64,000 nt of DNA from a virus: the UHGV virus genome UHGV-0212524; one strand, 5' to 3'. The position numbers were made by a program, and so were the translations under genes. Each line of letters starts with the position of its first letter. Within the stretch, counting starts at the first letter, position 1. The notes below the pieces were generated by a model that saw only the letters and a program-made list of their open reading frames with translations, ran no database searches and was not told the origin of the DNA. Of this stretch, positions 18,876 through 46,657 are shown piece after piece.

Positions 18876-18899
18876 GTATTTACCTAAAGGAGCATTAAA

Positions 18900-19331: not shown

Positions 19332-19338
19332 CCTCTCT

Positions 19339-28132: not shown

Positions 28133-28152
28133 TGCAGGTTGCTCCAGTATTT

Positions 28153-29040: not shown

Positions 29041-29161
29041 TGATTACTCCAATTATTTCACGGGTAGTATCTTTAGCGTCTAGCTCAGACCCAACATAAA
29101 CAGCAGCTTTGTTATCAAGGATGGTTTCGAAGGGCTTGGTATGGAACCACCACCAGAAGAC

Positions 29162-29371: not shown

Positions 29372-29381
29372 TTCTCACCTC

Positions 29382-29777: not shown

Positions 29778-29786
29778 TTCTTCCCC

Positions 29787-30179
29787 CTATCGACCAGAGC
29801 AACCGCCGGAGCAAGCACCCGAACAGTTATGCGAACAACGCCCAGTACAACTTCCAGTACAGGTACTTGTACAACTGCTAGAACAAGCCCCCGAGCAGCC
29901 AGAGCATCCCGAACAGTTGCCCCCACAGGACGAAGAGCAGCTACCCACGCACGACGCTGAACAGTTTCCTGAACAGCTCGAGCAACCGTGAGTACATCCG
30001 TTAGAACATGTCCACGAACACGCTCCTCCGCAGTCTAAACGCGAAGGCGTCCAACCGGAAAACGAATCTGCCGCGTTATGCGCTTTCGATGCGACCTGCG
30101 CATTGACACGAGGGCCGGTAGCGACTGTATTTTCTACTGTGGTTAACCGATCGCGCATTTGTTTAACACTAATCGCCAT
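29787..30179 (-). CDS. Cys-rich leader-core peptide, RiPP precursor-like (130 aa)
   Basis: Leader MAISVKQMRDRLTTVEN... then CGGACSWTCSNGCTHGCSSCSGNCSASC...CSGR; RBS aaggaag upstream. Confidence 0.65.
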   Translation of the reverse strand: MAISVKQMRDRLTTVENTVATGPRVNAQVASKAHNAADSFSGWTPSRLDCGGACSWTCSNGCTHGCSSCSGNCSASCVGSCSSSCGGNCSGCSGCSGACSSSCTSTCTGSCTGRCSHNCSGACSGGCSGR

Positions 30180-30244: not shown

Positions 30245-31450
30245 TTATTTCGTACCCGCTTCCGCCTGTACGTCATCACGAGACGTCAGGTTAGCGTTAA
30301 CGTGTACTGGGGCCTGAACCACACCACCGTATCTCTTGTGGAGATAACCGGTGTGCGGGTTATCTGCCGCGATGTGGTTTTGTAGGTTCTGGTTCGCTTG
30401 ACTGATTGCGTTCGTGTTATTGTTAACTTGCTGTTTAAGCGCATCCAGGTTCTGTTGTACCTGATCGATTTTCTGATCGGTTTCTTGACCCTGTTGCTCT
30501 AACGCGGCAACACGCTGAATAACCTGATTCAGTTTTGTGTTTAAATCGTTGATGCTCTTTTGCAGTTGTAACACTAACGAGTTCAGGTTCGCTAACGCTA
30601 AGGCCATTTTCTGGTAGTTTTGAGCAACCACGTTAAGTTGGTCGTTCCACGCTTCCAGAGAGTTGACAACAGCGTCAATACGCTTACCTAAAGCTTCGTC
30701 CGCTTTCTTCAGTGCATTGATTTCCGTAATCGTTGCGTCGATGGCAGACTGGACGTCACGAATAAGCGCACGGATTTCAGTTTCTGTTAACCCGTTAACC
30801 TGATGAATATCAAGATGGTGAACGTTACCGGTTGCGTTGATGTGTGCATTTAAAGCGTCTAAGAAGTCATTTTTCAGGCTTTCTAAAATCGCTTTAATGT
30901 TCTCTAACTGTACCGCGTCACCGGAACTGATCGCATCTTTAATACCCGCCAATACGGTAATGATATATTCAAAACCGTAGATGTCACCCACGTCTTTATA
31001 CGTCGGTGCAGATGGGAATGTATCCGGTACGTTACGCAGGTCTTTAAACGCAATCGTACGGTTATCGAGGTTTAATTCAGCAATCGCCTGTTCGATAGCC
31101 ACAATGTTCGCAGACTGTGGACCACCAACGACCTGCGCAGATACCGTAATATCTGTTGGAATCGCTGTGTTAGTGACCACCACCGCCATAACAATCTCGC
31201 GGTTTTTAGTCAGCTTTTCATAAGTCGGGTGTGCAAAAATCAACTCATAATCGGTACCACGTTCGTAGGTTGCATCCGGTCGGTTAGCAACACGTAAACG
31301 GAACGTGTCCGCAAAGAACGGGCCGTCAGGAAAAGCAAAAGCACGGTTTACTTTACCTGTACCTAACGTAATCTGACGCTCTACAGCGTTAGACGTTAGC
31401 GAGCCCGTTAAATCTAAAGGATATTGATAAACAATGGAGGCCATGGCCAC
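30245..31450 (-). CDS. short coiled-coil fibre protein with shared fibre N-terminal anchor motif (401 aa)
   Basis: N-terminal FPDGPFFADTFRLRV...GTDYELIF matches the anchor motif of the three large fibres; the C-terminal 200 aa is heptad-rich (LNSLVLQLQKSINDLNTKLNQVIQRVAALEQQ). Confidence 0.65.
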   Translation of the reverse strand: MAMASIVYQYPLDLTGSLTSNAVERQITLGTGKVNRAFAFPDGPFFADTFRLRVANRPDATYERGTDYELIFAHPTYEKLTKNREIVMAVVVTNTAIPTDITVSAQVVGGPQSANIVAIEQAIAELNLDNRTIAFKDLRNVPDTFPSAPTYKDVGDIYGFEYIITVLAGIKDAISSGDAVQLENIKAILESLKNDFLDALNAHINATGNVHHLDIHQVNGLTETEIRALIRDVQSAIDATITEINALKKADEALGKRIDAVVNSLEAWNDQLNVVAQNYQKMALALANLNSLVLQLQKSINDLNTKLNQVIQRVAALEQQGQETDQKIDQVQQNLDALKQQVNNNTNAISQANQNLQNHIAADNPHTGYLHKRYGGVVQAPVHVNANLTSRDDVQAEAGTK

Positions 31451-31484
31451 TCTCCTTTATTCGAGACGTCCTTGTCTCGAGTCA

Positions 31485-34400
31485 TTAAGATGTAAACATA
31501 AGATTGAACTGGAGTTTGTCGATATCGCGAGTTTCCGCCGGATTCACGGCATCGTACGCGGTCGCTACGTAAACGGTTAGCGTACCGTTAGCGTAAGACG
31601 ATTTCACCGGTGGGTTAGTTCCGGTCTGACCATCTCGGACAATGAGCGTAGGTTCACTCGGGAGATTGTCAAACTGACCCTTGACCGCTTTATACACCAA
31701 ACCAGATTGCGCAGCCAGTTCAGTGTCCGTAAAGACAAAGAACGGTGTGTCGATATCAGCCTGCTTGACGATGGTGTTCGATTCAACGTCAATCAACTGT
31801 ACCGCCCCAAACTTCGTACGATAACTTTCATACTCGTTCTTCGGAATAACGAACGTGACATGAACACGAACCTCCTCGGCAGGTTTAAACCCACTGTGCT
31901 CTTTTTCCAGGTACTGGTTGGCGGTTAACGTTACCGTTTGTTCAGTCATCGTACCACCGGCCTGGTTTAATGCATACCGAGCTTCAACAATACCGGTTGG
32001 TGCAGCAAGTCGTAGTTTCAGAGCACGATTCGCCGTTCCTGGATTACCTGGCACCTGAACACGCAAACTCAATGCTAAGTAAGCATTCGTTCCGGTAGTC
32101 GGTTTCGTATACGCACCAATCCATTTCATGTTCGCAGACGCTGCCTGCATGTTCTCAGAAGCAGTGGCTGTCGCAATGTTAGCAGCTACCGCTTTCTGCC
32201 AGAATTGGTCAGCGCAGTTCTCATACGCTACCCTGGCCACGCTCTTATAACCCGAATACGTTTCCTGAATTGGTAACTTAGGACGCGTCGTAATGCCGGA
32301 CAGTGAACCCCATTTCTGACCGTCAACATACCCTTCACCTTTCGACGCAGACGCCGTAGGTGCTTTAACGGGCTTGTTAACCAGTGTTAATAGAGGACCC
32401 GTCTTTCTGTCAAACGCTGCTGCTACATCGTGTTGGTCGATAATTGCTGCGTGGTCTTCCAGTTCTTTCACACGACCCAAACGTTTTACTTTGTCGATAC
32501 TGATACCAGTAATACGGCTGGAATCGGTGGTTACTGTCCCAACGAACAGTCTTGTTGAGGTATCGGCTAACTGCTCCAAACCGATGCGGTATTGCGCGGT
32601 AGAACCCGACACCTCAGCGTGCACGTAGAACGTCTGGTTAGCGTGATTGGATGGGAACTCACTGCTTAAATCCACAGACCACGTTGGGAGTGTGTAACTG
32701 CTGCTACCGAAATCTAATTTGACTTCTTCTGTCAAATACAGAATCCAACCTTCCGCTGTTTCCACACCGGCAATAATAACCGCCTGACCTCCGGTTGAGA
32801 ACGTCGTGTCGTTAACGAACTCTGCGGCTGTATACGCGTTACCTGAACAGAAAACACGGTCAGCTTTAGAGTAAATCAACGCCATCTTGTCCCAATCACC
32901 GGCACCCATATAGCACCCAGATTCTGGTCTATGTTCAGGGGCCATCTGCCGTAACTGTGATTTACCTGCAACGCGTGTCCAACCTGAACCAGGGTCGAAG
33001 GTATATTTAGCAGCGTAGCCCAGGGCGTTTAAGTCCCCGATATTTCGGGTAGTTAACGTATAAGGTAACCAGATACCGAAGTTAGTTCCATCCGCAGATG
33101 CAAAAATAGGCTGCCCCACGCGCCTCGTTTTACCTCCCGCTCCCCCATTTAGTGACTGATAACTTAAACCATAATCGAGGTCTAAGAACCAGTCCACCAA
33201 CTTAAAGGTGGCTGAGTTGAAACGTAAGTAGCCGTTCTCTTTAGATGGGCTCACCATGAAGTAATAGATGTCAAGAATTCGACGTCCGTTACTTGAGGTT
33301 TTCATGCACGAAACTTGCAACAAGTCAAATTCGCACACGGTGTTGATACCCAACATCCAAAGAGCAAACAATGCATTACCGGTTTGATGTGCAGCACTAA
33401 TACGTTCGTTCGCGTAACCATTTGCTTGACCAGATGGCGCACCGTCAACGATCATCCGAATCATTTTCTGCCGATCGGCTTCTTCTAGCGTTAAGCGTTC
33501 GGAAGACAATGCGAAGTTACCGTAGATGTTACGATACGGGAACGTTTCTGCTTTGGTCAAATACCAGCCGTTCAACTGTCCATGACGCTCCTCAGGGATC
33601 ATGCACGCAGCCATACAGCTAAGCTGCTCGTAAAGCGTTGGATCGACTTCACGACGGTTGTTGTTCGGACCGTACCCACTATACCCAGAAACATCGTAAG
33701 GTTTGTTCGGATCAACTTCCACTTCGATCGTGTAACGGTTACGAGGGTTCGATAACCAGACCTTATTCGAACCACCAATCCCTACTGGATAAGACAAACC
33801 GATGGTGTAAATGGAGCCACGGCCTTTATCCCAGGTAAACGTTCCTTCGCCCGAGGTGTTGTTTGGGTTATCGTAACGCAGATAATCGAAAAGCTCTCTG
33901 CCTTGTGTACTCTTAATAGAAACATTAGGCATTTGGTCCGCATCGGCAATTTGCCAACAGGAAAGCATCATTCCTGTACCGTTGGGTTTAGCATACGTCG
34001 CGAAACAACGGTTGTTTGCCTGGCCACCACCCCACTTACGATTGGTTCCTACAGTTGAACCATCTGCGAACGAGAGTGTAGTAGTAGCATCAGCCTTGAT
34101 GGGGAAGCGTTCGCGGCCTTCTAACGTAACCTTGCCCGTCAACGTATCGATTGTAAAACTTGTTGCCCATTGAAGGAAATTAATCGTCGTACCGTCGGCC
34201 GCTGCAAACCACACGGTAGGCATATGGTTCACACGAATCACGCTATCGCGCACAGCACACGCGTGGTTACATTCTGGACCGTGAACAAAGTTACGCCCGA
34301 TCGTCCATTTAGCACGACCCTCCGGTGTGAGATATGTAAAGAATTGACCCGTTTGCGACTCTTCGGTTTTCTGACCAATACGCAAGCAGAGGTTATCTCC

Positions 34401-36671
34401 GAATTGTCCCATCTCGCCGGTTAGAGTTACACGTTCAAATTCTAACGTAGTGTTAGTAGACAAATCGGCCTTACGTAGACGCCAAGCTGCTACGGCGTAA
34501 GCGGAGTTATTTACCGTTGAACGGAGAAGATAAACGTAGTCCTCAACCAACACGACATCGTCAGCTTCCGGCCACGGGTTCCAGGTTTGTTCCACAGTAC
34601 CACTGGGGTTGCCGTTACGGTACACGGGCATCGTAACGCGACATACCACCGTGTGCTTAGTGTGGTCCATCGAGCCATTAAACAGCACCAAATAACGGTT
34701 ATTGTCAGAACCCAGGCAAATAATCGCTTCCTGGCCACCGATCAATATCGCTATTAGGGTCACCCCAGGATATTTACTCATCCCGGCAGGGTGATATTTC
34801 ACTGAGGTCTGCTGCGGATTTACAAACGCGTTTGACGTGTCAATGTCAGCATAGCCGTAATAAATAGCTTCCGTACCCGGCACGCCGTTAGAACCGTTAC
34901 GGAGCGAATAAACCTTACCCTGCTGATACCCAACAACCCCTTTCTGGTAGGACTGGTTTTTGGTATAGCCTGCGTAGTTACCTAACGCTGGGATAGGTAA
35001 GAAGTTCTTGTTACCGAATTTCGCTCCACCTACCGTCCACGCCGGTAAGATGGTATTCAGTTTATCAGAGACCTTCTTAATCTCTTTTGCGAACAACCAG
35101 CCTTGACGCGACGTGACAGCTTTATCGTTAGTGGTGTCAATTGCATCCCAGAGCTGTAAGATACCGTCAACCGTTGCACTACCAATCGGGACGTTATCCA
35201 AGTCAGCAGTGGTGTGGGTGTGCGTTTTCAAACTCTTGTTTTTCAACACGTTCGTTAACGCTTTTGTCACAGGCTTATCACTCGGTATGGTGTTATCCAT
35301 CTTATCGATACCGAAATCGGTTTTCGTTAAGGTTAACACCATATTGTCGCCTGTTTTAACAAACCCTTTACCGTTAACGGTATAGTCATCGTCAACGTAC
35401 AAGTCCAAGCGGTCTTTTAATTCTGTTACAGCTTTCTGGGAGATAGCAGTACCTAACGCCGCAGACGTAGAGATATTCGTAATCGAGAACAACCCATAAA
35501 CTGATTCGGACGCCGTGGGAATATTCGCGTTTAACGTAACCGGGTTAGTCTGTTTTGCGGTACCGTACGGTTTTACAGTGTCTGACGCTTTGAAATACGC
35601 GTTTGCTTCAAGCAACGTTACTGACGTCAGATACATGTTCACCATTTCTGGTGTAACCAGGTACACGGAGTTATAAACTGGCGCTAATACGTCCTGTTCC
35701 GACCCCGAGTGAACCCAAAGCGTATTCAGACCCGCACTGAATTCAACCGCTAAACCCGATTCGTTGTTGTCCTGGTCTGCTTTAATCACCAACGGTTGTG
35801 GCGAGGTAATTAACCACTTATCACCACGAATACTGATGATGTGGCCACCTGACGTTTTAAACGTTAATTCATTACCGTTCGTGGTACCCCATCGACCGTA
35901 AACGGTGCCGAGGGCTTCACCCATTAACTGGTCAACGTCCGATTGCTCAATACCCGCTGAACCCATCAGCGTAGCCAACTCGTCAATCGTCAACCCAAAC
36001 GCTTTTGTAGCGTCAACAGCACGACCTAATACCGGGAGAGCAGCAATGTCATCAGTGGTATAATGATGCGCGTTAGGGTTACGGTGATGCTGGTATAACT
36101 CTTCGTCGAAAACCTTTTTACCGTTCTCGTAAATCAAGTTAGTGACTTCACTGAACGCAGCATCTAATTCCGTAGAACGTTTGATGATTTTCTTGCGAAT
36201 GTCTTCTAACGCCTTAACAACCTCATCCCTCAGAATCGCTTCTTCTAAGTTAGCAGGCGGGTCGATAGGCTGAATAACCGGCGCATACGCCATTAGTTCA
36301 GACCAGTCCACGTTACGTGGGTCTTTCAGGTCAGTACGAACTAAGAACTTCCCGATTTCAGATTGCGGTACACGGTATTGACGTGCTACCCCTAAAATCT
36401 CATATTCGATTTCTGTTGCAGTAAGCAACATAAACCCGCCGTAAATCTGATCTTGTTCAGCTTCTGCGAGTTCTTTAAAGTAATAGCCTAAATAGTAGTC
36501 CAACCCCTCAATCAGAGTACGACGTCCGTTAGGCGCGGTATCGTCGGCTACTGTGAGTTTTAATCCGATACGATAAAAAGGTCCTTCAGGCGGAATGACC
36601 ACGTTAAATCGGTTAGGGTACGTCGCTGTGCTTAGCGTACCGTTAAACTGCGCCGCGTCTTCTCTCGGCAT
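31485..36671 (-). CDS. large tail fibre or tail spike protein (1728 aa)
   Basis: N-terminal anchor motif PPEGPFYRIGLKLTV...GLDYYLGY shared with neighbouring fibres; size and position in the structural block. Confidence 0.7.
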   Translation of the reverse strand: MPREDAAQFNGTLSTATYPNRFNVVIPPEGPFYRIGLKLTVADDTAPNGRRTLIEGLDYYLGYYFKELAEAEQDQIYGGFMLLTATEIEYEILGVARQYRVPQSEIGKFLVRTDLKDPRNVDWSELMAYAPVIQPIDPPANLEEAILRDEVVKALEDIRKKIIKRSTELDAAFSEVTNLIYENGKKVFDEELYQHHRNPNAHHYTTDDIAALPVLGRAVDATKAFGLTIDELATLMGSAGIEQSDVDQLMGEALGTVYGRWGTTNGNELTFKTSGGHIISIRGDKWLITSPQPLVIKADQDNNESGLAVEFSAGLNTLWVHSGSEQDVLAPVYNSVYLVTPEMVNMYLTSVTLLEANAYFKASDTVKPYGTAKQTNPVTLNANIPTASESVYGLFSITNISTSAALGTAISQKAVTELKDRLDLYVDDDYTVNGKGFVKTGDNMVLTLTKTDFGIDKMDNTIPSDKPVTKALTNVLKNKSLKTHTHTTADLDNVPIGSATVDGILQLWDAIDTTNDKAVTSRQGWLFAKEIKKVSDKLNTILPAWTVGGAKFGNKNFLPIPALGNYAGYTKNQSYQKGVVGYQQGKVYSLRNGSNGVPGTEAIYYGYADIDTSNAFVNPQQTSVKYHPAGMSKYPGVTLIAILIGGQEAIICLGSDNNRYLVLFNGSMDHTKHTVVCRVTMPVYRNGNPSGTVEQTWNPWPEADDVVLVEDYVYLLRSTVNNSAYAVAAWRLRKADLSTNTTLEFERVTLTGEMGQFGDNLCLRIGQKTEESQTGQFFTYLTPEGRAKWTIGRNFVHGPECNHACAVRDSVIRVNHMPTVWFAAADGTTINFLQWATSFTIDTLTGKVTLEGRERFPIKADATTTLSFADGSTVGTNRKWGGGQANNRCFATYAKPNGTGMMLSCWQIADADQMPNVSIKSTQGRELFDYLRYDNPNNTSGEGTFTWDKGRGSIYTIGLSYPVGIGGSNKVWLSNPRNRYTIEVEVDPNKPYDVSGYSGYGPNNNRREVDPTLYEQLSCMAACMIPEERHGQLNGWYLTKAETFPYRNIYGNFALSSERLTLEEADRQKMIRMIVDGAPSGQANGYANERISAAHQTGNALFALWMLGINTVCEFDLLQVSCMKTSSNGRRILDIYYFMVSPSKENGYLRFNSATFKLVDWFLDLDYGLSYQSLNGGAGGKTRRVGQPIFASADGTNFGIWLPYTLTTRNIGDLNALGYAAKYTFDPGSGWTRVAGKSQLRQMAPEHRPESGCYMGAGDWDKMALIYSKADRVFCSGNAYTAAEFVNDTTFSTGGQAVIIAGVETAEGWILYLTEEVKLDFGSSSYTLPTWSVDLSSEFPSNHANQTFYVHAEVSGSTAQYRIGLEQLADTSTRLFVGTVTTDSSRITGISIDKVKRLGRVKELEDHAAIIDQHDVAAAFDRKTGPLLTLVNKPVKAPTASASKGEGYVDGQKWGSLSGITTRPKLPIQETYSGYKSVARVAYENCADQFWQKAVAANIATATASENMQAASANMKWIGAYTKPTTGTNAYLALSLRVQVPGNPGTANRALKLRLAAPTGIVEARYALNQAGGTMTEQTVTLTANQYLEKEHSGFKPAEEVRVHVTFVIPKNEYESYRTKFGAVQLIDVESNTIVKQADIDTPFFVFTDTELAAQSGLVYKAVKGQFDNLPSEPTLIVRDGQTGTNPPVKSSYANGTLTVYVATAYDAVNPAETRDIDKLQFNLMFTS

Positions 36672-36765
36672 CGTAAAGACTCCTACTTTTAAATAAAATG
36701 GATACCCCTCCCCATTACAGGGAGGGGTTACCTACGGACACACAACTGCCCGCAGGCAGCCTGTC

Positions 36766-39700
36766 CTAAGTACGATCCCCTAACTGCTTCCCGTTAAGTT
36801 CACGTTTCAGTACAGAAAGTATCCATTTCCACGCTTTACTCGTGATATGGTACGGATTGCGTTTCTCCATTAAGAACTGCTTTTCACCGCTACGCAGTTC
36901 GAAGCTCTGCGCATTAAGCTGATCCTGACGAGTGCTTTGCTCATCAGTCACGTCTAACGAACAGGTAAAGTTAAGCTCGTAACCTTCGGGATTATCACCC
37001 GGCGGGTCTAAGACAATATAGATGTCCTGACCTACACGTAAGTCGGTGGCCGTGATACTAATCGCTTTACCTACGTCAGCACTGGTTGACAGAGCAAACT
37101 CTGCGCTATCAGTAGACGCTAAGAATGGGTCTTTCCCTGCGTCGCCGATAATCACCTTACCTGGCCAGTTACTTTTTATCGTTCCTGACACTTTTGCAAT
37201 TCGGTACTGTTGTTTATCGGCACCTTGTGCAAAACGGAGAATGAGTTTGTGACGATAACGACTTGCAGCAGCCTTAGTCGTACTCCACTCGTTGTTCCAG
37301 GAAGTATGCAGTTCGTTTTTCTTCGCCATCAGCGCACCGCGAGACAGCTTACGATCAAAGAACTGCGCAGGTAACTGCCCATCGTGAGAAACCGCAACGT
37401 TTCCCTGACCAGTTGGCAAGGCAATGCTCTCCGTGGCACGGTATTTTTGACTAATCTCATAAGTCGCAGGGTCAATCACAGACTGACTATAATCAGCGTC
37501 TTTGTTATCAGCCAAATACCCAACGGATGAATCCAAATACGACTCAAACAACGAACGTAAGTAATGATACTTATCAATGTCGATGTTGTTCGTAACCGGA
37601 TCAATCAGTGCGTGGCTAATTGTTACTCGGCATTTCGCGCTCAGTTCTTTAAACGACAACCCTATTCCGTCACCGGTGAAATAATCCACCAAGTCAAACG
37701 GGAATTGAATCTCCAATTGACGTTGTTTAACTGTCGTCGTCCCAAACTGCGAGAACGACAACGCTAAACGTAACACACGCGTACTTACGTTATAACGGTA
37801 ACGAATCATCCCACGAGGTGCATGGTTTGCAGAGATTTTATCTCGGGTGGCACCCCAGCCAATCAAATCGAGAATCGCGGGGTTGGTTTCTTCACCGTTG
37901 AACAACACGTCCTTAAACGTTGCATTCACCGCTGTTTCCCCAGACTCTTCCATTACCAACGGAATGTCAGTAACGTCTGAAACTGAACGGGAACCAATCC
38001 CCAACTTACACGCTTTGTCCGTCAGGTCAATACGTACATAACGACGTTTAACACTCGCCCCTTGCGTTGACGTACATAGCACCAAATCTGGTGCGGCAGT
38101 AAGTGCTTGTGTTCCACCGACGTCGTCAACATCGAATGCAAACGAACCTTCGAACGTCGGTGCGTTGTTTTCTTTCGGGTTAAACGGTGTAAACCAGCAA
38201 TACGGTGTAGCACCTTCAGGCATCACAACGTACTGAAGACTGGACTTCACGTTTTGGTTGTGTGCGTAAGTATAAAGACCGCGACTGACAAGATGGAAAA
38301 CATCACCTGTTCCGGCTGTTAACGCTTTCCTAAAGATACACGCTCTTGGTTCGGCAATAGCACGGTTTAATAACGGCAAACGTGGGTTATCCGTTAACGC
38401 CCAGTCCACAGAACTGAGTCCGTGTGCTTTACGCGTGTCGATGTGTTCACTAACCTCGGCACTTTTCCCGAAATCAAACGTGGTTTCGAACCCTACCGTT
38501 TTATTCGCGTAATTCTCACCAGCAACAATATCAACGTAACCGATATAACCACGTTCAGGATCAACTGCGATGCTCTGAATCGGTTCAGCACGCGAATACA
38601 GAGAGCCTGTGAGCATGTTAACGTACAGATAGTGACGAATCCCTACGTGCGTGGTAACAAACTCCTGGAGAAGCTCTACGCGCGTTTCAGGGCCACTGAA
38701 GTAAACAGGGTAATCCCCATCGTAAACTTCAAACTGTACCGCTGCGGACTTAGCCGTGTCACTACATTCAGCTTTAACCGCAATCGTGTAGTTTTCAACG
38801 TCTGCTGACGTTTCATACACTGCAACGAGTGGAGATTCGCCTGAAGCTGCTAGGTTACCGTTGATATAAACGGTTACCGGTCCGCCCCCTGCGGCATAAA
38901 CCCAGAGCTTCGATTGGTACGCCCTTACACGCGTTTTTGCCAGAACCGTAACGACTGACTGGTCACCCATCTGTGTAGCAGTTTTACCTACCGGGACAGA
39001 CTGGAACCCCATCAACGGCGGTTCTTCAATACCCGTCCAGTTGATTCCCGTACCGTTACTCACCTTACCCGTAGGCCAGGTCAGTTCAAGCTGGTTATTC
39101 GGTGAGAACCAGTTAAACATCGGGGTGGTTTGCAGGTCAATCGCACCAGTAACGGTGCTGTCGCCTTTCGTCCCGTCCAGCAAATAGAAATATTTCAAAT
39201 CCTGAACGGAGATTGACGTACCCTGGCTATTAAAGCGCCAGTCTGCACCTTTCACAGCAGCAAAATCAGTTACCGTGCCTTCTTTCGCGTTTGCAATTGC
39301 AGCAGCCACCACATCTAAACGGGCTGAAAGCTCTTTTAAGATGTTCGGTACCACCGCACGGTTTTCAACTAAGCCGTTCTGGTTAGTTGCGTAACGACCG
39401 ATGCCGTAAATCGACTGCGAGGCTTTATAAATGCCTAACTCTGACCAGTCGTGATGGTGTCCGACGTCTGCTAAACCACTAACCGAAGCATTCAGTGCGG
39501 TTGACAACGGTTTGTCGAGGTCTGCGGTGTTATCCGCTTGCCCTAATCCCAGGTCAGCTTTTGTGATTGTCCTGGAACCGTCGTTCATCGGTTTACCGTT
39601 AATCATGGTCGTTTTAGTCACGTACCCTGATAAGTCGGTTGAATACGGCGTTAATGACGCAGGGGTTGCAGCAACCCCAACCGTTTCTGTGCCTTTACCG

Positions 39701-40950
39701 GTTTTAAGTTTAACAACACCTTTTTCAGCGGTGGTCGCTTTCGTCGGGTCGATAGTCCCCACGATAGGATCGGCACGAGAACCTTTACCGGTAAAACTAA
39801 TCCCGTTACGGCCTTCGATATACACTTTGGAGTCATCAGGATCGCTACCGCCACTCCCGCCAGCATCAGGGTCTTGCTGATACTCCATCAGCGCTGTGGT
39901 GGTCAACAACGGGTTACCGTTCAGAGTGAGTTTGTTCATCCCTAAAGCGTCACCGGTTGACTCGATACGTAAGGTGTTTTTACCCGCACGCCAGTTAATG
40001 TAACGTCCCGCACCTGTGCCTTCCAGATGCCCTACCGCCAATACCACAGAACCGTTGGATTTTAACGTAAAGCCATCATTCGCAAAAATGATTTCGGACT
40101 CACCATTTTTCGAACGGAACTGTGCGCGGTTTCCAGACACCGTACAGTTAAACACGCCCCGTACTTCCGAAGAAATCCAGTGGGAGATATACGTGTCAAT
40201 AACTGACTGTGGTAAACGAAACGCTTTCAGTTCTTCCGTTAACGCTTTTAATTTTAACCCGTACGCCATAAAGGTGTCAGGTGTTTTCAGGTTAACGGGA
40301 TGGGCATTAATTTGTGCGCTCGTGGTTTCGTGCGGGTTCGTCGCGGCGATATGTGCTGGGTAGTTAAACGCTTCGATTTCTTTCCCCAACGCAGCCACTA
40401 GCGCTTTAACTTCGGCTAATTTATCTTTAATTAGCTGGTTAGCATCATCGGTTTTCAGCTCGATATCGTGAATCGCTGACGCTAAATATTTTTTGTTCAG
40501 CAAGTCCGCCCAGGACGTTGCCGCTGGCGTAGCCGGGTATAACGACGGTCTACCGTCTAACAACAGCCAGTCTGCACTGACCGGGTTATTCAAATATTTC
40601 ACCAGCTCGTCGAGCATGTCAACGAACGGGTCGTAGAACGTACCGCCGAGCATTTGCCCTTCAAAGGTTACAATGCCTTTGATGGATGGGTTGATAAGGT
40701 GTACCCCACAATACACGTTGGCTGCTACCGAGTCATCCAGTTCCGTCAGCTGATATTGCAGTTCGTAATCCACCCCACGGCTCAGTGGGGTGGTTGAACC
40801 TGGTTGTCTGACGACTAAGTCTTCAAAGAACGGGCGATGGTCTAAAATCACCACCCGGTCGTTGTTGTTTTCTGACCCGATGATACGCTCCTCTAAGAAG
40901 TGATTCTCGGTTTTCGTCCCCCGAGGATCGTAAGGATACGCTTTCATCAA
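36766..40950 (-). CDS. large tail fibre or tail spike protein (1394 aa)
   Basis: N-terminal HRPFFEDLVV...GVDYELQY anchor motif. Confidence 0.7.
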   Translation of the reverse strand: MMKAYPYDPRGTKTENHFLEERIIGSENNNDRVVILDHRPFFEDLVVRQPGSTTPLSRGVDYELQYQLTELDDSVAANVYCGVHLINPSIKGIVTFEGQMLGGTFYDPFVDMLDELVKYLNNPVSADWLLLDGRPSLYPATPAATSWADLLNKKYLASAIHDIELKTDDANQLIKDKLAEVKALVAALGKEIEAFNYPAHIAATNPHETTSAQINAHPVNLKTPDTFMAYGLKLKALTEELKAFRLPQSVIDTYISHWISSEVRGVFNCTVSGNRAQFRSKNGESEIIFANDGFTLKSNGSVVLAVGHLEGTGAGRYINWRAGKNTLRIESTGDALGMNKLTLNGNPLLTTTALMEYQQDPDAGGSGGSDPDDSKVYIEGRNGISFTGKGSRADPIVGTIDPTKATTAEKGVVKLKTGKGTETVGVAATPASLTPYSTDLSGYVTKTTMINGKPMNDGSRTITKADLGLGQADNTADLDKPLSTALNASVSGLADVGHHHDWSELGIYKASQSIYGIGRYATNQNGLVENRAVVPNILKELSARLDVVAAAIANAKEGTVTDFAAVKGADWRFNSQGTSISVQDLKYFYLLDGTKGDSTVTGAIDLQTTPMFNWFSPNNQLELTWPTGKVSNGTGINWTGIEEPPLMGFQSVPVGKTATQMGDQSVVTVLAKTRVRAYQSKLWVYAAGGGPVTVYINGNLAASGESPLVAVYETSADVENYTIAVKAECSDTAKSAAVQFEVYDGDYPVYFSGPETRVELLQEFVTTHVGIRHYLYVNMLTGSLYSRAEPIQSIAVDPERGYIGYVDIVAGENYANKTVGFETTFDFGKSAEVSEHIDTRKAHGLSSVDWALTDNPRLPLLNRAIAEPRACIFRKALTAGTGDVFHLVSRGLYTYAHNQNVKSSLQYVVMPEGATPYCWFTPFNPKENNAPTFEGSFAFDVDDVGGTQALTAAPDLVLCTSTQGASVKRRYVRIDLTDKACKLGIGSRSVSDVTDIPLVMEESGETAVNATFKDVLFNGEETNPAILDLIGWGATRDKISANHAPRGMIRYRYNVSTRVLRLALSFSQFGTTTVKQRQLEIQFPFDLVDYFTGDGIGLSFKELSAKCRVTISHALIDPVTNNIDIDKYHYLRSLFESYLDSSVGYLADNKDADYSQSVIDPATYEISQKYRATESIALPTGQGNVAVSHDGQLPAQFFDRKLSRGALMAKKNELHTSWNNEWSTTKAAASRYRHKLILRFAQGADKQQYRIAKVSGTIKSNWPGKVIIGDAGKDPFLASTDSAEFALSTSADVGKAISITATDLRVGQDIYIVLDPPGDNPEGYELNFTCSLDVTDEQSTRQDQLNAQSFELRSGEKQFLMEKRNPYHITSKAWKWILSVLKRELNGKQLGDRT

Positions 40951-40960
40951 AAAATTCTCC

Positions 40961-43900
40961 TTAATCGCGAATGATTACCGCCTGCACTTTATTGTTGGTG
41001 TCGATAAACGACATTACGCGCTCCTTGTTAAGATAAGGAGGTATCGGTAACGCAGCGTAATCCGCCAGGCTGTTATTAAACTCGGTTGCCACTAGCGCAT
41101 TAAGCGTTTCAGGGTCTGAGCTTGTCCCGGCCAATTCCATGACGCGTACACGATTTAACGAGGAGTAGTTGCTGATATAATCCAACAGCGTACCGTAGAG
41201 TTTGTTCCCGGTTATGCTGTCTGTCGTAGAACGGATATTAGCACGCACTTCGTCCTCATAAAGTCCCCCTAAACCGTAGTAAATAGGGGTGTACGGATCG
41301 TTAACGATAGGCGCGAGGTTGAACCCAGTTAAACGGTCGGTCAGCGAGATTTTCTGCGTAGTACCACCTGCCGCCGTACAGCTTACGTATTTATCTGCCG
41401 CAGACAAATACACCACAATAGTGTAAACAGTACCTGCTAAGGTCAGCGTTGCGTTAAACGTTAATTCGTTATTCGCACCACGCGTGTGGGTAAATGATAC
41501 GTCAGGATGTAACGTACTCCACGGTGCTGGGGTAACGCGTTTGGTCGGCGTGAAACCTAACACCACGGATTTCCCGTTACCGAAGTTTAAACCAAACCCG
41601 GCGTAACAATACTCACCGTTACTGTCGGTTAAACGATAACCACGGGTGATAAGTAACGACAACCGCATAAACTCGTCTTCGGTATTTTTCCAGCAAGCCA
41701 GGATGGTTTCTAGCACCGTTCCGGTTTTTGCGTTGCTTTCGGTTTCCCAACTGACTCGCATCCCCGCATTGTTAAATACCGGGAACAGGTTGTGGATAAA
41801 CCCGTGAACGTTATCACTTACCCCTTTTGCATCAAACACCCACTTCGACGCAAGCTGGTCGTATTTCACACCATCGAGTGCTTTATATCCACCGCCAACC
41901 ACATAACGCCAGTCTGCTTCGCCACGCACAACCGCTTGAAGTCCAGAAGCCCAGCAGGGCGCACCTACTGTTAAATTGCTTAACCCCAGCACTGCACGTG
42001 AAGCAGAACGCTGAATGTGTGCGTTATCATTGGCGACGTGGTCTTTCAGCTCACGGAAATCGCCTAACCGTGTCACGTTACGTAGTTCAGTAACGAACAC
42101 TTCAGAAAGGTCGTTAATACCGATTAGACCCACGCGCGTCATGGTATCCGTTTCAGCCTGACTGTAGCTGTCGTGAATAATGTACTTCGCTTTGTTATCG
42201 ACAATGTCAACAAAAATCCCTGCGTAAATTTCCTTATTCAGATTCGGGAAACGTTCAGTGACGTTAACCGACATCAACGGCACGTCGTACGTTTCGCCGC
42301 CAACGAAATACGTGGAAGCAGGAAGTGTCACTAGGATTTTGTCTTTAACCGTAACGTCAATTAGGTCGTTACCGGACTTACCAAAGCGAATAATGTCAAC
42401 GCGCGCACCCGAGTCAACCCCGCCGACGGTATTCTCCAAATCTTCAATCTGGGAAGTCTGCGCCATCACCACACTACCGTCGAGCGCTAAAGTGGCATCA
42501 TCCACTTCCAGACCGAATTTAATCAGGCCCCGTTTCGTGGTGTCTGCGTTCGCAACACCGAATACGGAAGACGGGTGTTGGTGAACCTTCGGTGAGTATT
42601 TGTCCAGCTCGGTCTGCTGTGCAACAGAAATCGGTAAGTCAACGTCCGGGGTATTCGCAACGTTACCTAAACCAAAGGTAATTTTGTCGATAGTAACCGA
42701 ACTGGTAAGCTGCATGTCGTTGATGTACGACTTGGCGGCAACTAACTTACCGGTAAACTCTGCGTCCAGTTTTTCAATTAACGCAGGGGTTGCTGCGAGG
42801 TTTTCAGCCGTACCGAATTCGTCCGTTAACTGCCAACACGCTAACGTAGTAACGTCTTCGGCAACCGGAAGAATAAACGTTGCGACAAACGGCGACGCTT
42901 TAATCCCGCTACCCGTAAGTTCCACTGTAGCTGTAGTTGCACCGTAGAATAATCCCGTACCGCCTGCGGTATTGCCCGGCAAATACGGCGCTACCGTAGT
43001 GGGGTCTAAGAGTTTCTTACCGCGCCACAGTAATCCACGGTCATCAGGATATAGCACAAGCTGGTTATCTCCCGCTTGCAACGTTACCGGGTTGTTACCC
43101 ACGTTAACGTCAGTAGAACCTTGACCGATGAACTTAATGGATTTCGGATCAACGACAAACTGAGCACCTAAACGTCTCTCGTCAACAACGCCAGGTGCTT
43201 TCTTAATGGTAACCGTGTTACCTTTGTTTTGCGAACTAATATTGACGCCGTCAGCAACATTATTGATCAGCGATTTAAAGTGGTGCTGATTCTCTAATGC
43301 TTCTAACGCAGCGTCCATGTTATTGAAGTTAATCCGACCGCTATACGTTTTACTGTTTACGGTAATAACGACGTCAAACACATTCCCTGTACGCTTCAGT
43401 TGAAAACGTAGCGTAAAATCCCCATCCGGTATTGCCGGATTAGGAGCTTGCGAAATATACCGAACTGCCGGTACAGGACTACCGTAACCGTGCAACGCCA
43501 GTTCGATAGTAAGAGTACCGGACCAGACTTCACCGGTAATCTCTACGTACTTACCGGAGTTACTACCGGGATTTTCGTAGAAACGAAAACCAACCCTACC
43601 GACCGCTTCATTACCAGACGCTGTTTTACGTCCGGTAACAATAAAGTCAATATCTTGCAGGTTGGCAGGTACCGCATTAAAGTTAGCACTGAAACCGCTT
43701 TTCGTTCCTGTATAACGAAGCGCACCGTGATATCTGTGGCCACTACTAACATAGCTTTCACTAAAATAAGGACTCACGTACTTCGACATCGACACTGGGT
43801 CGACTTCAGTAGTAAATGACGTAAAGCCGGGGAGCGTTGTAATCGTGCCGTTAACGTTCTTGCTCGCTGATTCACGAAGCAGTTTTTTCTGGGCGGTTAA

Positions 43901-45283
43901 CGTTGCCTGCGTTGGGTACTTAGCGTTTACGTAATCGGTTAATTGCTCCTTAGTTTTCCCGTAGGCTAATGCTGCGTCGGATGCAATGCCGTTTAATTCT
44001 AACGCACGAATCGGACCCCAGGTGTCAGCGTGTGGGTTATCCTTACGGGTGACGTGTTCGTGCGCAGGCGCGTTGCGATAGAGCTGTTCTACTAACTGAT
44101 GGTACTTAACGATTAACTGATAAACGTCGTTACTTACGTCTGCTTCTGGCGCACCAGGTAACGCAAGGAATTGAGCATAATCGTTCTCAGCCGCCCACCA
44201 GTTTAAGTTAACGTTGGTTTTGTACTTCAGCCACTTCGCAACATCCGTTTTGGTGTAACCTGCTGAGAATTCGTCTGGCGGTGTGTCAACGTTAAAGGTG
44301 TAGTCCATGGACTGTTTGTTAGTCGTCACCTCGATAACGTATACACCGTTACCCGGTTGACGAACAACGCTAAACGTTAATTCGCCTTTTAATTCATCGT
44401 CGGTCAAACCGTTGATTAACGTATAATCATAATCGGTCGAACCACTGCCTAACGCAACTGTCAGTCGTAGGCTGATTTTACGTTGTTTTAATTGGAGACG
44501 AAGGATACTTGCGCCACCGTTCGCGTAGCACAACATCCAATCGATTTGTTCGTTCGGATTAATACTCCCCATATTCGGAAAAATAGCCGGAATACGGTAT
44601 TTCATCGACAGGGAATATTCATTTAACGTGGTGGTTTTGTACGTAACGGAGAAACGGCGTTTAGCGGTATTGTAAGTATACCCACCTTTGTTGTCGTACG
44701 TTGCGTACTGTTCAGACGTGATAACCGTACCATTAGCACGATGCTCGATATCTAACGTGTTACGTGCAATCGGGTCTACCCGATTCACCACGTTACCTAA
44801 CGAATCACCTAAGCCTGCAATGGCCTGCATTAATTCCAGTTCACCTTTCCAGTTTTCCCAGTCGAACTGAATATCGACCGGTGGAAAGTAAACTTCGCCG
44901 ATAACGGTATCCCATTGACACGCAGACGGGTATTTATCTTTATTGAGTTCGCGTTCTGCGGTAATCTGTTCTTGGGTCGCTTCACCACAACCTACGGCGT
45001 GGTAATCTACCGTGAAATTCGATTTGTATTTGTCATTAACAATCCAAATCATCCCGTGCACGAGATAGGCTGTGCGCAACATACCGGTCTCGTACGGGTG
45101 TGTAATAACGTAATCGTCGCCTAAGGTCAGTATTTTGCCGCCGCTCTTGACCACCAGGGATGTGGTGAAAAAAGGGGCGTGGGCAGGTACCAACATTCGG
45201 TACTTCGTACCAATGACGGCGACCGCTTCACCGGTTATTTTATTCCCCGGTTCTTTGAAGTGTGGGTCTAGGACGACAGCCAT
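40961..45283 (-). CDS. large tail fibre or tail spike protein (1440 aa)
   Basis: N-terminal HAPFFTTSLVV...GDDYVITHPY anchor motif. Confidence 0.7.
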   Translation of the reverse strand: MAVVLDPHFKEPGNKITGEAVAVIGTKYRMLVPAHAPFFTTSLVVKSGGKILTLGDDYVITHPYETGMLRTAYLVHGMIWIVNDKYKSNFTVDYHAVGCGEATQEQITAERELNKDKYPSACQWDTVIGEVYFPPVDIQFDWENWKGELELMQAIAGLGDSLGNVVNRVDPIARNTLDIEHRANGTVITSEQYATYDNKGGYTYNTAKRRFSVTYKTTTLNEYSLSMKYRIPAIFPNMGSINPNEQIDWMLCYANGGASILRLQLKQRKISLRLTVALGSGSTDYDYTLINGLTDDELKGELTFSVVRQPGNGVYVIEVTTNKQSMDYTFNVDTPPDEFSAGYTKTDVAKWLKYKTNVNLNWWAAENDYAQFLALPGAPEADVSNDVYQLIVKYHQLVEQLYRNAPAHEHVTRKDNPHADTWGPIRALELNGIASDAALAYGKTKEQLTDYVNAKYPTQATLTAQKKLLRESASKNVNGTITTLPGFTSFTTEVDPVSMSKYVSPYFSESYVSSGHRYHGALRYTGTKSGFSANFNAVPANLQDIDFIVTGRKTASGNEAVGRVGFRFYENPGSNSGKYVEITGEVWSGTLTIELALHGYGSPVPAVRYISQAPNPAIPDGDFTLRFQLKRTGNVFDVVITVNSKTYSGRINFNNMDAALEALENQHHFKSLINNVADGVNISSQNKGNTVTIKKAPGVVDERRLGAQFVVDPKSIKFIGQGSTDVNVGNNPVTLQAGDNQLVLYPDDRGLLWRGKKLLDPTTVAPYLPGNTAGGTGLFYGATTATVELTGSGIKASPFVATFILPVAEDVTTLACWQLTDEFGTAENLAATPALIEKLDAEFTGKLVAAKSYINDMQLTSSVTIDKITFGLGNVANTPDVDLPISVAQQTELDKYSPKVHQHPSSVFGVANADTTKRGLIKFGLEVDDATLALDGSVVMAQTSQIEDLENTVGGVDSGARVDIIRFGKSGNDLIDVTVKDKILVTLPASTYFVGGETYDVPLMSVNVTERFPNLNKEIYAGIFVDIVDNKAKYIIHDSYSQAETDTMTRVGLIGINDLSEVFVTELRNVTRLGDFRELKDHVANDNAHIQRSASRAVLGLSNLTVGAPCWASGLQAVVRGEADWRYVVGGGYKALDGVKYDQLASKWVFDAKGVSDNVHGFIHNLFPVFNNAGMRVSWETESNAKTGTVLETILACWKNTEDEFMRLSLLITRGYRLTDSNGEYCYAGFGLNFGNGKSVVLGFTPTKRVTPAPWSTLHPDVSFTHTRGANNELTFNATLTLAGTVYTIVVYLSAADKYVSCTAAGGTTQKISLTDRLTGFNLAPIVNDPYTPIYYGLGGLYEDEVRANIRSTTDSITGNKLYGTLLDYISNYSSLNRVRVMELAGTSSDPETLNALVATEFNNSLADYAALPIPPYLNKERVMSFIDTNNKVQAVIIRD

Positions 45284-46618: not shown

Positions 46619-46657
46619 CTCCTACCCTCTAAGAGGGTAGGAGTAGCACGTTTTTTT
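46619..46657. terminator. putative terminator between convergent genes
   Basis: cctcctaccctc taaga gggtaggag, then a T7 run. Confidence 0.5.

What the first reader, a model, noticed from the sequence alone, without database searches (positions are those of the whole stretch)
30245..45283. Four co-oriented fibre proteins sharing one N-terminal anchor motif
The products of 30245..31450, 31485..36671, 36766..40950 and 40961..45283 share an N-terminal motif (P..GPFF ... G.DY.L) but have unrelated distal parts, one being a long coiled coil. Together with the plus-strand 1488-aa fibre and the 1001-aa spike-like protein, this gives at least six candidate receptor-binding proteins in the window, suggesting a branched multi-specificity adsorption apparatus.
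Basis: partly seen in the sequence, partly recalled or inferred. Interest (0 to 1): 0.45.

Follow-up and report, generated by a model that had tools for sequence, protein, structure and literature searches.

The report
Jumbo-phage baseplate fibre paralog cluster
Four neighbouring genes of a Salmonella-type giant phage encode the already described phiKZ gp131 / SPN3US gp167-170 family of baseplate fibre proteins. Their shared N-terminal domain is the part that bundles the chains and docks them to the baseplate, so this is a real but largely known feature.

Summary
All four minus-strand proteins (A 399 aa, B 1728, C 1393, D 1440) carry one homologous N-terminal domain. Profile-profile probabilities between the ortholog groups are 92-99%, and no other ORF in the window has the domain.

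The feature is not new. The genes are the syntenic orthologues of SPN3US gp167-gp170, of which gp168-170 are the published "paralog family C" of baseplate/fibre candidates. Their N-termini are homologous to phiKZ gp131/133/134/135. The divergent neighbour (45351-46613) is the phiKZ gp130 / SPN3US gp171 homologue, and phiKZ fibres dock beneath gp130.

In the 2026 phiKZ cryo-EM atlas, six gp131-like N-domains plus a six-helix bundle form the base of each of 12 fibres, as a candidate hetero-hexamer. The four proteins are therefore more likely subunits of one composite fibre than four independent fibres. My inference is A3+B+C+D.

B, C and D also share a colinear trunk of about 500 residues with a conserved HxH motif, so "unrelated distal parts" is only partly true.

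Conservation falls from N- to C-terminus in B-D, and variation among close relatives of D lies outside the N-domain. Both fit host-facing distal parts.

Interest is modest. This is a new member of a known kind.

The parts
45351..46613 (+). G, 420 aa: homologue of phiKZ gp130 and SPN3US gp171, an outer-baseplate protein beneath which the fibres dock in phiKZ. It is transcribed divergently from D.
   Evidence: BLASTP gives 77% identity to SPN3US gp171, 81% to Asesino gp191, and E 7e-11 to phiKZ gp130. The start at GTG 45351 is set by alignment to the orthologues and by a GAGGA upstream. The same divergent arrangement is seen in phiKZ. SPN3US gp171 is an essential tail protein (PMC5105663).
40961..45283 (-). 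D, 1440 aa: orthologue of SPN3US gp170 and Asesino gp190. Class-II (gp131-like) fibre subunit.
   Evidence: Residues 1-494 are 67% identical to SPN3US gp170, and residues 654-1440 are 43% identical. The N-domain matches phiKZ gp131 with E 5e-7.
43193..43795 (-). Lineage-specific insertion in D, residues about 497-697. It is absent from the Asesino, SPN3US, Stratton and Phobos orthologues and holds the most variable stretch among close relatives.
   Evidence: One search shows 97-100 gap positions per 100-residue block in all four orthologues. tblastn finds no match in 50,697 phage records. Residues 541-600 have the highest minority-residue fraction, 0.127, among 89 close relatives.
36766..40947 (-). 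C, 1393 aa: orthologue of SPN3US gp169 and Asesino gp189. Class-II fibre subunit.
   Evidence: It is 48% identical to SPN3US gp169, and the N-domain matches phiKZ gp131 with E 2.5e-8.
31485..36671 (-). B, 1728 aa: orthologue of SPN3US gp168 and Asesino gp188. Class-II fibre subunit.
   Evidence: It is 50% identical to SPN3US gp168 and 57% to Asesino gp188. The B-group N-terminus matches the phiKZ N-terminal alignment with probability 97.9%.
32430..32753 (-). Conserved 'island' module in the distal part of B (residues 1307-1414). It is also present in D 981-1089 and in many other jumbo phages.
   Evidence: hhalign of B against D gives probability 96.4%. Residues 1301-1400 are 50% identical in Stratton and 36% in Phobos, while the flanks are at or below about 20%. 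tblastn finds the module in EL, RaK2-like and Agrican-like phages. pLDDT is 80-89 in the AF2 model.
30245..31444 (-). A, 399 aa: orthologue of SPN3US gp167 and Asesino gp187. Class-I (gp133-135-like) subunit made of an N-domain, helices and a long coiled coil.
   Evidence: It is 77% identical to SPN3US gp167 and matches phiKZ gp135 with E 5e-13. The AF2 model has mean pLDDT 80.
30368..30784 (-). Coiled-coil rod of A (residues 221-359).
   Evidence: AF2 predicts a single helix 221-359 with pLDDT 86-98. Coiled-coil family matches are seen.
30920..31444 (-). gp131-like N-terminal domain of A (about residues 1-175).
   Evidence: AF2 gives a beta-sandwich over residues 10-125 with pLDDT about 90.
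36147..36671 (-). gp131-like N-terminal domain of B.
40423..40947 (-). gp131-like N-terminal domain of C.
44759..45283 (-). gp131-like N-terminal domain of D.
   Evidence: It is nearly invariant among 89 close relatives, with 4-8 variable columns per 60.
35151..36146 (-). Trunk of B after the N-domain (to residue about 507). It is colinear with C and D and ends in the conserved ...DNT..DKP...HxH fibre motif (HTH at residue 484).
39391..40422 (-). Trunk of C after the N-domain (to residue about 519), with NPH at 204 and HHH at 497.
42515..44758 (-). Trunk of D after the N-domain (to residue about 923), interrupted by two inserted regions. NPH is at 416 and HQH at 901.

Best explanation
The window comes from a phiKZ-related jumbo phage of the SPN3US/Asesino type. 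The four genes are its copies of the gp131-family peripheral baseplate fibre proteins.

Shown or taken from the literature:
- Each protein starts with a beta-sandwich N-domain of about 125-170 residues, followed by helices.
- In phiKZ, six such N-domains plus a six-helix bundle form the base of each of twelve fibres. The fibres dock under gp130, whose homologue G is encoded next door.

Inferred architecture:
- The domain falls into two classes. Class I holds A and phiKZ gp133/134/135. Class II holds B, C, D and phiKZ gp131.
- phiKZ uses one class-II protein three times plus three different class-I proteins. This phage has the reciprocal gene set.
- The most likely fibre is therefore A3 + B + C + D. 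Three copies of A would form a coiled-coil rod of about 20 nm. B, C and D would run together through a homologous trunk of about 500 residues, whose three HxH motifs could form a metal site. They would then separate into three different host-facing distal parts.

Confidence by step: about 0.85 for family membership and the docking role, and about 0.45 for the A3BCD stoichiometry. The stated 0.7 is for the explanation as a whole.
For: Orthology and synteny
- The gene order (G reversed, then D, C, B, A) is conserved with Asesino, SPN3US, Stratton, Phobos and pVa-21.
- phiKZ has the same gp130 (reverse) / gp131-135 arrangement.

Homology to phiKZ
- BLASTP: A-gp135 5e-13, C-gp131 2.5e-8, D-gp131 5e-7, B-gp131 1e-3.
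- hhalign of each ortholog group against the phiKZ N-terminal alignment gives probability 97.9-99.8%.

Virion location
- SPN3US gp167-171 are all detected in virions.
- gp168-170 are absent from a tailless mutant (PMC5694885).
- gp171 is an essential tail protein and gp168 a tail protein (PMC5105663).

Assembly
- The phiKZ atlas places six gp131-like N-domains plus a six-helix bundle at each of 12 docking sites, as a candidate gp131x3 + gp133 + gp134 + gp135 (PMC13250141).
- phiKZ TnSeq finds no insertions in gp131-135.

Two classes
- The NJ bipartition {A orthologues + gp133/134/135} against {B, C, D orthologues + gp131} has 98% bootstrap support.

Stoichiometry hint (SPN3US spectral counts per kDa)
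- gp168 1.08, gp169 1.41, gp170 1.00, against the 12-copy portal at 0.93.
- gp167 is 1.90. That is 1.5-2.4 times the trio across four data sets, by my arithmetic.

Fibre character
- 14 of 66 representative proteins carrying this N-domain end in a Peptidase_S74 fibre chaperone. Others carry Collar, Gp53-like_C or collagen domains.
- HxH lies in one alignment column in every B, C and D orthologue.

Host-facing distal parts
- Identity to orthologues falls from 74-86% at the N-terminus to 13-45% at the C-terminus in B-D. A stays flat at 65-83%.
- Variation among 89 close relatives of D avoids the N-domain and peaks in the inserted regions and near the C-terminus.
Against: - No structure or interaction data exist for this phage or for SPN3US fibres.
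- The phiKZ hetero-hexamer is itself described as a 'candidate', built by fitting AlphaFold3 models into density of about 4.5 A.
- Spectral counts are only semi-quantitative. A 3:1 ratio of A to each long protein would also arise if A3 paired with homotrimers B3, C3 and D3 at separate sites.
- Many family members end in an S74 chaperone, which is typical of homotrimers. The N-domain is therefore compatible with homotrimeric fibres.
- The position of gp131 within class II is unresolved: the B+gp131 grouping has 38% bootstrap.
- The distal folds could not be established. The AF2 model of B 529-1728 has mean pLDDT 56, so receptor binding is inferred only from conservation patterns.
- The six-helix bundle is shown only as helices 159-202 in the model of A. 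For B-D it rests on alignment.
Confidence: 0.7

Rival explanations
1. Four independent, probably homotrimeric, fibres or spikes each use the same N-terminal anchor to plug into equivalent sockets. This would give a branched apparatus with several independent specificities.
For: - The N-domain is a widespread N-terminal module on proteins of 159-2164 aa with many different C-termini. There are 3331 cluster representatives, and the domain always lies at residues about 1-175.
- 14 of 66 sampled representatives end in the S74 chaperone typical of homotrimeric fibres.
- The distal parts of B, C and D differ and evolve fast.
Against: - The phiKZ density shows six N-domains from different paralogues at each docking site.
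- All phiKZ paralogues lack transposon insertions on a single host.
- The set of one A, one B, one C and one D in fixed order is conserved across at least five genera-level lineages, rather than varying in number as exchangeable receptor-binding proteins do.
- A has no variable distal part.
- Three fibre types cannot be spread symmetrically over 12 sites of two kinds, if the phiKZ layout is conserved. This point is an inference.
Confidence: 0.22
2. The proteins are structural parts of the enlarged outer baseplate, acting as struts or scaffold, and do not bind receptors. Adsorption would be done by other proteins such as the F + Gp38 fibre.
For: - No recognisable receptor-binding or enzymatic Pfam or NCBIfam domain is found in B, C or D.
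- The window encodes a bona fide T-even type adhesin elsewhere.
- A is uniformly conserved, like a structural strut.
Against: - The steep N-to-C conservation gradient in B-D fits host-facing parts better.
- D 200-400 is conserved with Salmonella phage SPN3US (63-69%) but not with the Erwinia phages (12-28%).
- Micro-variation is concentrated in the inserted and C-terminal regions of D.
- The phiKZ atlas places the gp131 distal domain at the fibre tip.
- The fibre-type motifs KP...HxH and NPH are present.
Confidence: 0.07
3. They are head or packaging proteins, as the PHROG category of phrog_2163, phrog_8078 and phrog_7557 states.
For: The PHROG functional category is 'head and packaging', with the description 'virion structural protein'.
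Against: - SPN3US gp168-170 are missing from tailless particles, and gp168 is listed as a tail protein.
- phiKZ gp131 was located at the baseplate periphery.
- The PHROG category appears to be a default assignment for 'virion structural protein'.
Confidence: 0.01

Closest known systems
Salmonella phage SPN3US gp167, gp168, gp169, gp170. gp168-170 are 'paralog family C' of Ali et al. 2017 (PMC5694885). The Erwinia phage Asesino orthologues are gp187-190.
   Same: - They are one-to-one syntenic orthologues. A is 77% identical, B 50%, C 48%, and D 67% then 43% over its two aligned parts.
- The divergent gp171 neighbour is the same.
- The downstream genes, including the radical-SAM pair and the DUF4376 protein, are the same.
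- Protein sizes match: 190, 153 and 44 kDa.
   Different: - D carries an extra segment of about 200 aa (residues about 497-697) that has no match in the phage collection.
- The C-terminal thirds are only 13-45% identical.
- The published family lists only gp168-170. The gp167-type protein A is shown here to carry the same N-domain, and PHROG phrog_2163 already groups them.
Pseudomonas phage phiKZ gp131, gp133, gp134, gp135 with gp130 (Sycheva et al. 2012; cryo-EM atlas PMC13250141).
   Same: - The N-terminal domain plus the following helices and NPH motif are homologous.
- There are four N-domain paralogues in one co-oriented cluster, divergent from the gp130 homologue.
- The proteins are located in the tail and baseplate.
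   Different: - The paralogue make-up is reciprocal. phiKZ has one gp131-class and three gp133-135-class proteins, while this phage has three gp131-class and one gp135-class.
- The long proteins here are 1.4-1.7 thousand residues, against 771 for gp131.
- No sequence similarity is found to the gp131 propeller domain. The propeller-like fold of B is only weakly suggested.
- The short class-I protein here ends in a 139-residue coiled coil.
N-terminal anchor domain of podophage tail fibres: T7 gp17 (PDB 7boz), Carin-1 Dpo31 (8ck1), Klebsiella phage Kp9 (7y1c).
   Different: No Foldseek match reaches E 1e-3, there is no Pfam Phage_T7_tail hit, and the virion context differs (myovirus outer baseplate). 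Treat this as a lead, not as membership.
Branched multi-tailspike systems with shared N-terminal adaptor modules (CBA120 TSP1-4, G7C gp63.1/gp66, RaK2). This comparison rests on my own knowledge.
   Same: Several large tail proteins are encoded side by side, with conserved N-termini and divergent distal parts.
   Different: Those systems use homotrimeric beta-helix depolymerases that hang on one another through dedicated adaptor domains. Here no beta-helix or depolymerase domain was detected. The phiKZ precedent is co-assembly of the paralogous N-domains themselves into one hexameric base.

Membership tests
phiKZ gp131-like baseplate fibre paralog family (includes SPN3US paralog family C) | N-terminal domain homologous to the N-termini of gp131/133/134/135 | tested here: met
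   BLASTP E ranges from 5e-13 to 1e-3. hhalign gives probability 97.9-99.8% and E 4.5e-13 to 1.8e-27 for each of the four ortholog groups.
phiKZ gp131-like baseplate fibre paralog family (includes SPN3US paralog family C) | Several paralogues in one co-oriented cluster, next to and divergent from the gp130 homologue | tested here: met
   D, C, B and A lie on the minus strand. G (45351-46613, plus strand) is 77% identical to SPN3US gp171 and matches phiKZ gp130 with E 7e-11.
phiKZ gp131-like baseplate fibre paralog family (includes SPN3US paralog family C) | Present in virions and dependent on the tail | not testable with these tools
   Known only through orthologues. SPN3US gp167-171 are detected by MS, and gp168-170 are absent from the tailless mutant.
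phiKZ gp131-like baseplate fibre paralog family (includes SPN3US paralog family C) | Helical segment after the N-domain that can contribute to a six-helix bundle | tested here: inconclusive
   The AF2 model of A has helices at 159-174 and 177-202, with pLDDT 57-76. For B-D the segment is supported only by alignment to A and C. No multimer prediction was possible.
phiKZ gp131-like baseplate fibre paralog family (includes SPN3US paralog family C) | Distal beta-propeller domain as in the gp131 C-terminus (PDB 4GBF, from memory) | tested here: inconclusive
   There is no sequence similarity beyond the N-terminus. The AF2 model of B 529-1728 has mean pLDDT 56. Its Foldseek matches are propeller enzymes (GH43, GH32) with TM at or below 0.33 and large rmsd.
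T7 gp17-type N-terminal fibre anchor (Pfam Phage_T7_tail) | Sequence match to the family profile | tested here: not met
   No Pfam hit in the N-terminal region of any of the four at E <= 0.01.
T7 gp17-type N-terminal fibre anchor (Pfam Phage_T7_tail) | Same fold as the gp17 N-terminal domain | tested here: inconclusive
Trimeric phage fibre shafts with HxH metal sites (T4 gp37/gp12 type, own knowledge) | Conserved HxH motif in register in the chains of the shaft | tested here: met
   HTH, HHH and HQH lie in one alignment column of B, C and D, and an HxH is kept at that position in all 18 orthologues examined. Metal binding itself was not tested.
Branched tailspike systems (CBA120 / G7C / RaK2 type) | Beta-helix depolymerase or other enzymatic receptor-binding domain in each protein | tested here: not met
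   No Pfam or NCBIfam domain is found in B, C or D.

The most novel reading that the evidence does not exclude
The fibre of SPN3US-type phages is an asymmetric hetero-hexamer, A3 + B + C + D. A heterotrimeric trunk splits into three different distal heads, so each of the 12 baseplate fibres would carry three distinct host-binding parts.

Compared with phiKZ, the same hexameric base was diversified in the opposite subunit class. phiKZ has three class-I proteins and one class-II protein, while this phage has one class-I and three class-II. That would be an example of reciprocal paralogue expansion within one conserved socket.
Probability: 0.4. Interest if true: 0.6.

Novelty: new member of a known kind. 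Interest (0 to 1): 0.3.

Why it matters
For annotation, these four 'hypothetical' or 'virion structural' proteins and their neighbour G can be named as gp131-family baseplate fibre subunits and the gp130-like docking protein. This phage type appears in hundreds of Salmonella, E. coli and Shigella isolate assemblies.

For biology, the reciprocal paralogue pattern gives a concrete, testable prediction about how chimallivirus fibres are built. It also indicates which parts to engineer for host range: the distal thirds of B-D and the inserted regions of D.

It also corrects the count of independent receptor-binding devices in this window. The likely picture is one composite gp131-type fibre, one T-even-like fibre with a Gp38 adhesin, and one conserved glycosidase-like tail protein, rather than six separate devices.

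Tried and rejected
- The word-indexed protein search with the four-sequence N-domain alignment returned only 13 short fragments. The exhaustive profile search was needed instead.
- Single-sequence PDB searches with B, C and D found nothing relevant.
- A profile search of the PDB found only a fibre linker motif in 9d93 'tail collar fibers gp4' (E 3.6e-11) and nothing for the N-domain itself. The phiKZ atlas chains were not found, either by sequence or in the fold library, whose entries run to 2026-04-08.
- I tested whether the D insertion (about 497-697) duplicates the earlier inserted region of D. The Smith-Waterman score equals the shuffle mean (z about 0), so this is rejected at sequence level.
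- The AF2 model of B 529-1728 was poor (pLDDT 56). Its propeller-type Foldseek hits are treated only as a hint.
- The sigma-70 promoter and terminator scan was at chance level: 20 against 19.9 and 21 against 20.4. These phages use their own RNA polymerases, so it is uninformative.
- The Goslar cryo-EM preprint could not resolve the fibres. The SPFM paper does not name the selected fibre genes.
- The PHROG 'head and packaging' label is rejected on SPN3US mutant proteomics.


Full report
**What is in the window**

Positions 30245-45283 hold four consecutive minus-strand ORFs. I call them A (401 aa as listed), B (1728), C (1394) and D (1440). Reading the start regions shows that A most likely begins at the ATG at 31444, with an AGGAG 7 nt upstream, giving 399 aa. 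C most likely begins at the ATG at 40947, giving 1393 aa. The genes are tightly packed: D to C is 10 nt, C to B 94 nt, and B to A about 40 nt.

**Is the N-terminal similarity real?**

In a four-way alignment of the first 170 residues, P-F-[FY] and G-x-D-Y-x-[LI] are invariant. Pairwise BLASTP alone would not settle the question. A-C (2e-7) and B-C (1.5e-18) are significant, but A-B, A-D and C-D over the N-terminus are not (E 0.5-2.4).

I therefore collected the orthologues of each protein from five related phages: Asesino, SPN3US, Stratton, Phobos and pVa-21. I then compared the ortholog-group alignments of the first 230 residues by hhalign. All six paralogue pairs are significant, with probability 92.3-99.3% and E 5e-7 to 8e-21. 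An HMM of the domain finds exactly these four among 406 six-frame segments of the window. The 1001-aa protein (E) and the 1488-aa protein (F) do not have it.

**The similarity goes well beyond a motif**

Full-length profile comparison gives the following matches:

- B 20-507 with C 28-519, probability 99.7%
- C 168-519 with D 382-923, probability 98.7%
- B 197-512 with D 413-928, probability 96.5%
- B 1307-1414 with D 981-1089, probability 96.4%, a second shared module

B, C and D thus share a colinear trunk of about 500 residues. It consists of the N-domain, helices, an NPH-type motif, and a module ending in ...DNT..DKP......HxH. The HxH falls in one alignment column and is kept in every orthologue examined. 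D has two large inserted regions within the trunk. "Unrelated distal parts" applies only to what lies beyond these modules.

A is different. It has the N-domain, two helices (159-202), and then a single 139-residue helix (221-359, pLDDT mostly above 90) in an AlphaFold2 model with mean pLDDT 80. This confirms the "long coiled coil".

**What the proteins are**

The region is syntenic with Erwinia phage Asesino gp187-190 and Salmonella phage SPN3US gp167-170. Identities to the SPN3US proteins are 77% for A, 50% for B, 48% for C, and 67% then 43% for the two aligned parts of D.

SPN3US gp168, gp169 and gp170 are the published "paralog family C". They were described as baseplate or tail-fibre candidates similar to phiKZ gp131 and are absent from a tailless mutant (PMC5694885; PMC5105663).

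I checked the phiKZ link directly:

- A matches gp135 with E 5e-13, C matches gp131 with 2.5e-8, D matches gp131 with 5e-7, and B matches gp131 with 1e-3.
- Each ortholog group matches the phiKZ gp131/133/134/135 N-terminal alignment with 97.9-99.8% probability.
- The ORF transcribed divergently from D (true start about 45351, 420 aa) is 77% identical to SPN3US gp171, an essential tail protein. It is homologous to phiKZ gp130 (E 7e-11).
- phiKZ has the same arrangement, with gp130 on one strand and gp131-135 on the other.

**How it most likely works**

The 2026 cryo-EM atlas of phiKZ (PMC13250141) reports twelve peripheral fibres docked beneath gp130. Each base is made of six gp131-like N-domains and a six-helix bundle. 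The authors interpret this as a candidate hetero-hexamer, gp131x3 + gp133 + gp134 + gp135. A phiKZ transposon screen found no insertions in any of gp131-135 (PMC12676376). This argues that the paralogues are non-redundant parts of one machine rather than optional alternative receptor binders.

A neighbour-joining tree of the N-domains gives 98% bootstrap support for a split into two classes. One class holds the A orthologues with phiKZ gp133/134/135. The other holds the B, C and D orthologues with gp131. phiKZ therefore has three class-I paralogues and one class-II, while this phage has one class-I and three class-II.

If the hexameric socket always takes three of each class, the fibre here would be A3 + B + C + D. 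This is my inference. It agrees with the SPN3US spectral counts per kDa:

- gp168 1.08, gp169 1.41 and gp170 1.00, close to the 12-copy portal at 0.93.
- gp167 at 1.90, which is 1.5-2.4 times the trio over four data sets (the arithmetic is mine and the method is semi-quantitative).

The proteomics does not exclude A3 paired with homotrimeric B3, C3 or D3 at separate sites. Three such fibre types could not be distributed symmetrically over 12 sites of two kinds, if the phiKZ layout holds.

**Evidence that the distal parts face the host**

Identity to orthologues falls from 74-86% in the first 100 residues to 13-45% at the C-terminus in B, C and D. A stays flat at 65-83%.

D residues 200-400 are conserved with the Salmonella phage SPN3US (63-69%) but not with the Erwinia phages (12-28%). 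D also carries an insertion of about 200 residues (about 497-697) that is absent from all four orthologues and has no match in 50,697 phage records.

Among 89 close relatives of D from public assemblies, the N-domain is almost invariant. Variation peaks in the inserted regions and near the C-terminus.

The distal folds themselves remain unresolved. The AlphaFold2 model of B 529-1728 is poor (pLDDT 56), and its Foldseek matches to beta-propeller glycosidases have low TM-scores.

**Breadth of the N-domain family**

An exhaustive profile search found 3331 cluster representatives at E <= 1e-3, of which 2299 are at E <= 1e-10. In the 150 best hits listed, nearly all carry the domain at residues about 1-175, in proteins of 159-2164 aa. 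Of 66 sampled representatives, 14 end in the Peptidase_S74 fibre chaperone. Others carry PKD, Collar, Gp53-like_C or collagen domains.

**The "six receptor-binding proteins" claim**

E (2385-5390) is 76% identical at protein level to the Asesino 'putative tail-associated protein'. It has full-length relatives in many phage types, some annotated as glycosidase or colanic-acid degradation.

F (5469-9935) has a Gp34-type trimerisation domain and an S74 chaperone. Its first 218 residues have no match in the phage collection. It is followed directly by a 260-aa T-even-type Gp38 adhesin (Pfam GP38 3e-69). That adhesin is 70-80% identical to those of RB49-like phages and to none in jumbo phages.

The phage probably does have several adsorption devices. 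The four proteins of this finding most likely count as one composite device.

**Verdict**

The feature is the known gp131 / paralog-family-C fibre cluster of phiKZ-related jumbo phages, so this is a new member of a known kind.

What may be new here:

- The explicit placement of the gp167-type protein in the family.
- The two-class reciprocal pattern, with its A3BCD prediction.
- The lineage-specific variable insertion in D.

Noticed in passing
window 5469-10717 (+): The 1488-aa fibre F (Gp34_trimer and Peptidase_S74 domains) is followed directly by a 260-aa T2/RB49-type Gp38 tip adhesin (Pfam GP38 3e-69, Gp38_N 1.5e-15). The adhesin is 70-80% identical in protein, and about 80% in DNA, to those of 165-kb T-even phages. 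No jumbo phage appears among the listed best hits. This looks like horizontal acquisition of a T-even distal fibre module by a phiKZ-like phage. The first 218 residues of F have no match in the phage collection.
   Followed up: partly
window 2385-5390 (+): The 1001-aa protein E is 76% identical to the Asesino 'putative tail-associated protein' and 71% to the Proteus phage 7 'glycosyl hydrolase'. It has full-length relatives at 27-47% identity in many unrelated phage groups, including rV5-like phages, 121Q, and several siphophages and Vibrio phages. It lacks the gp131-like N-domain.
   Followed up: partly
window 24712-30179 (-): Directly downstream of A on the same strand lie two paralogous 130/131-aa ORFs (both phrog_6085), a 295-aa ORF, two radical-SAM proteins (27215-28132 and 25891-27225), a 196-aa ORF and a DUF4376 protein (24712-25386). 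The radical-SAM pair and flanking ORFs keep their order in Asesino, SPN3US, Stratton and Phobos. Whether the radical-SAM enzymes act on the fibre proteins is unknown.
   Followed up: partly
whole window (from relatives of D, 40961-45283): More than 90 protein clusters that are 81-93% identical to D come from Salmonella enterica, E. coli and Shigella isolate assemblies. They often lie on contigs of about 220-227 kb, and one cluster has 625 member sequences. This jumbo phage type is thus common in sequenced isolates, as a carrier state or a co-cultured phage. No near-identical match to the two stretches searched (1-12500 and 30245-45283) exists in the phage collection used.
   Followed up: no
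N-domains: 30920-31444, 36147-36671, 40423-40947, 44759-45283: The gp131-like N-terminal domain defines a large family, with 3331 representatives at 50% clustering, yet it has no Pfam-A or NCBIfam model.
   Followed up: partly
window 32430-32753 (-), B residues 1307-1414; also D residues 981-1089: A compact beta module is conserved as an island inside otherwise unrelated distal regions. It is shared with virion proteins of phage EL, Agrican-like Erwinia phages, RaK2/121Q-like phages and others (phrog_3573). Its function is unknown. C may hold a degenerate copy at 749-846, with hhalign probability 26-56%.
   Followed up: partly
window 36704-36728 (-) and 46619-46643: Two strong hairpins, each with an 11-bp stem and 7 G-C pairs. 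One lies in the 94-nt gap between C and B. The other lies just after the stop of G, between convergent genes. Overall terminator-like counts are at chance level.
   Followed up: no
protein P0233 (from the exhaustive search, not in the window): A 1313-aa protein matches positions 43-75 of the N-domain profile, the PFF...GxDY stretch, in 17 separate places. A piece of the domain therefore exists elsewhere as a tandem repeat.
   Followed up: no
window 12001-20000: G+C drops to 39-42% here, against 46-50% in the fibre regions at 2-12 kb and 26-46 kb.
   Followed up: no
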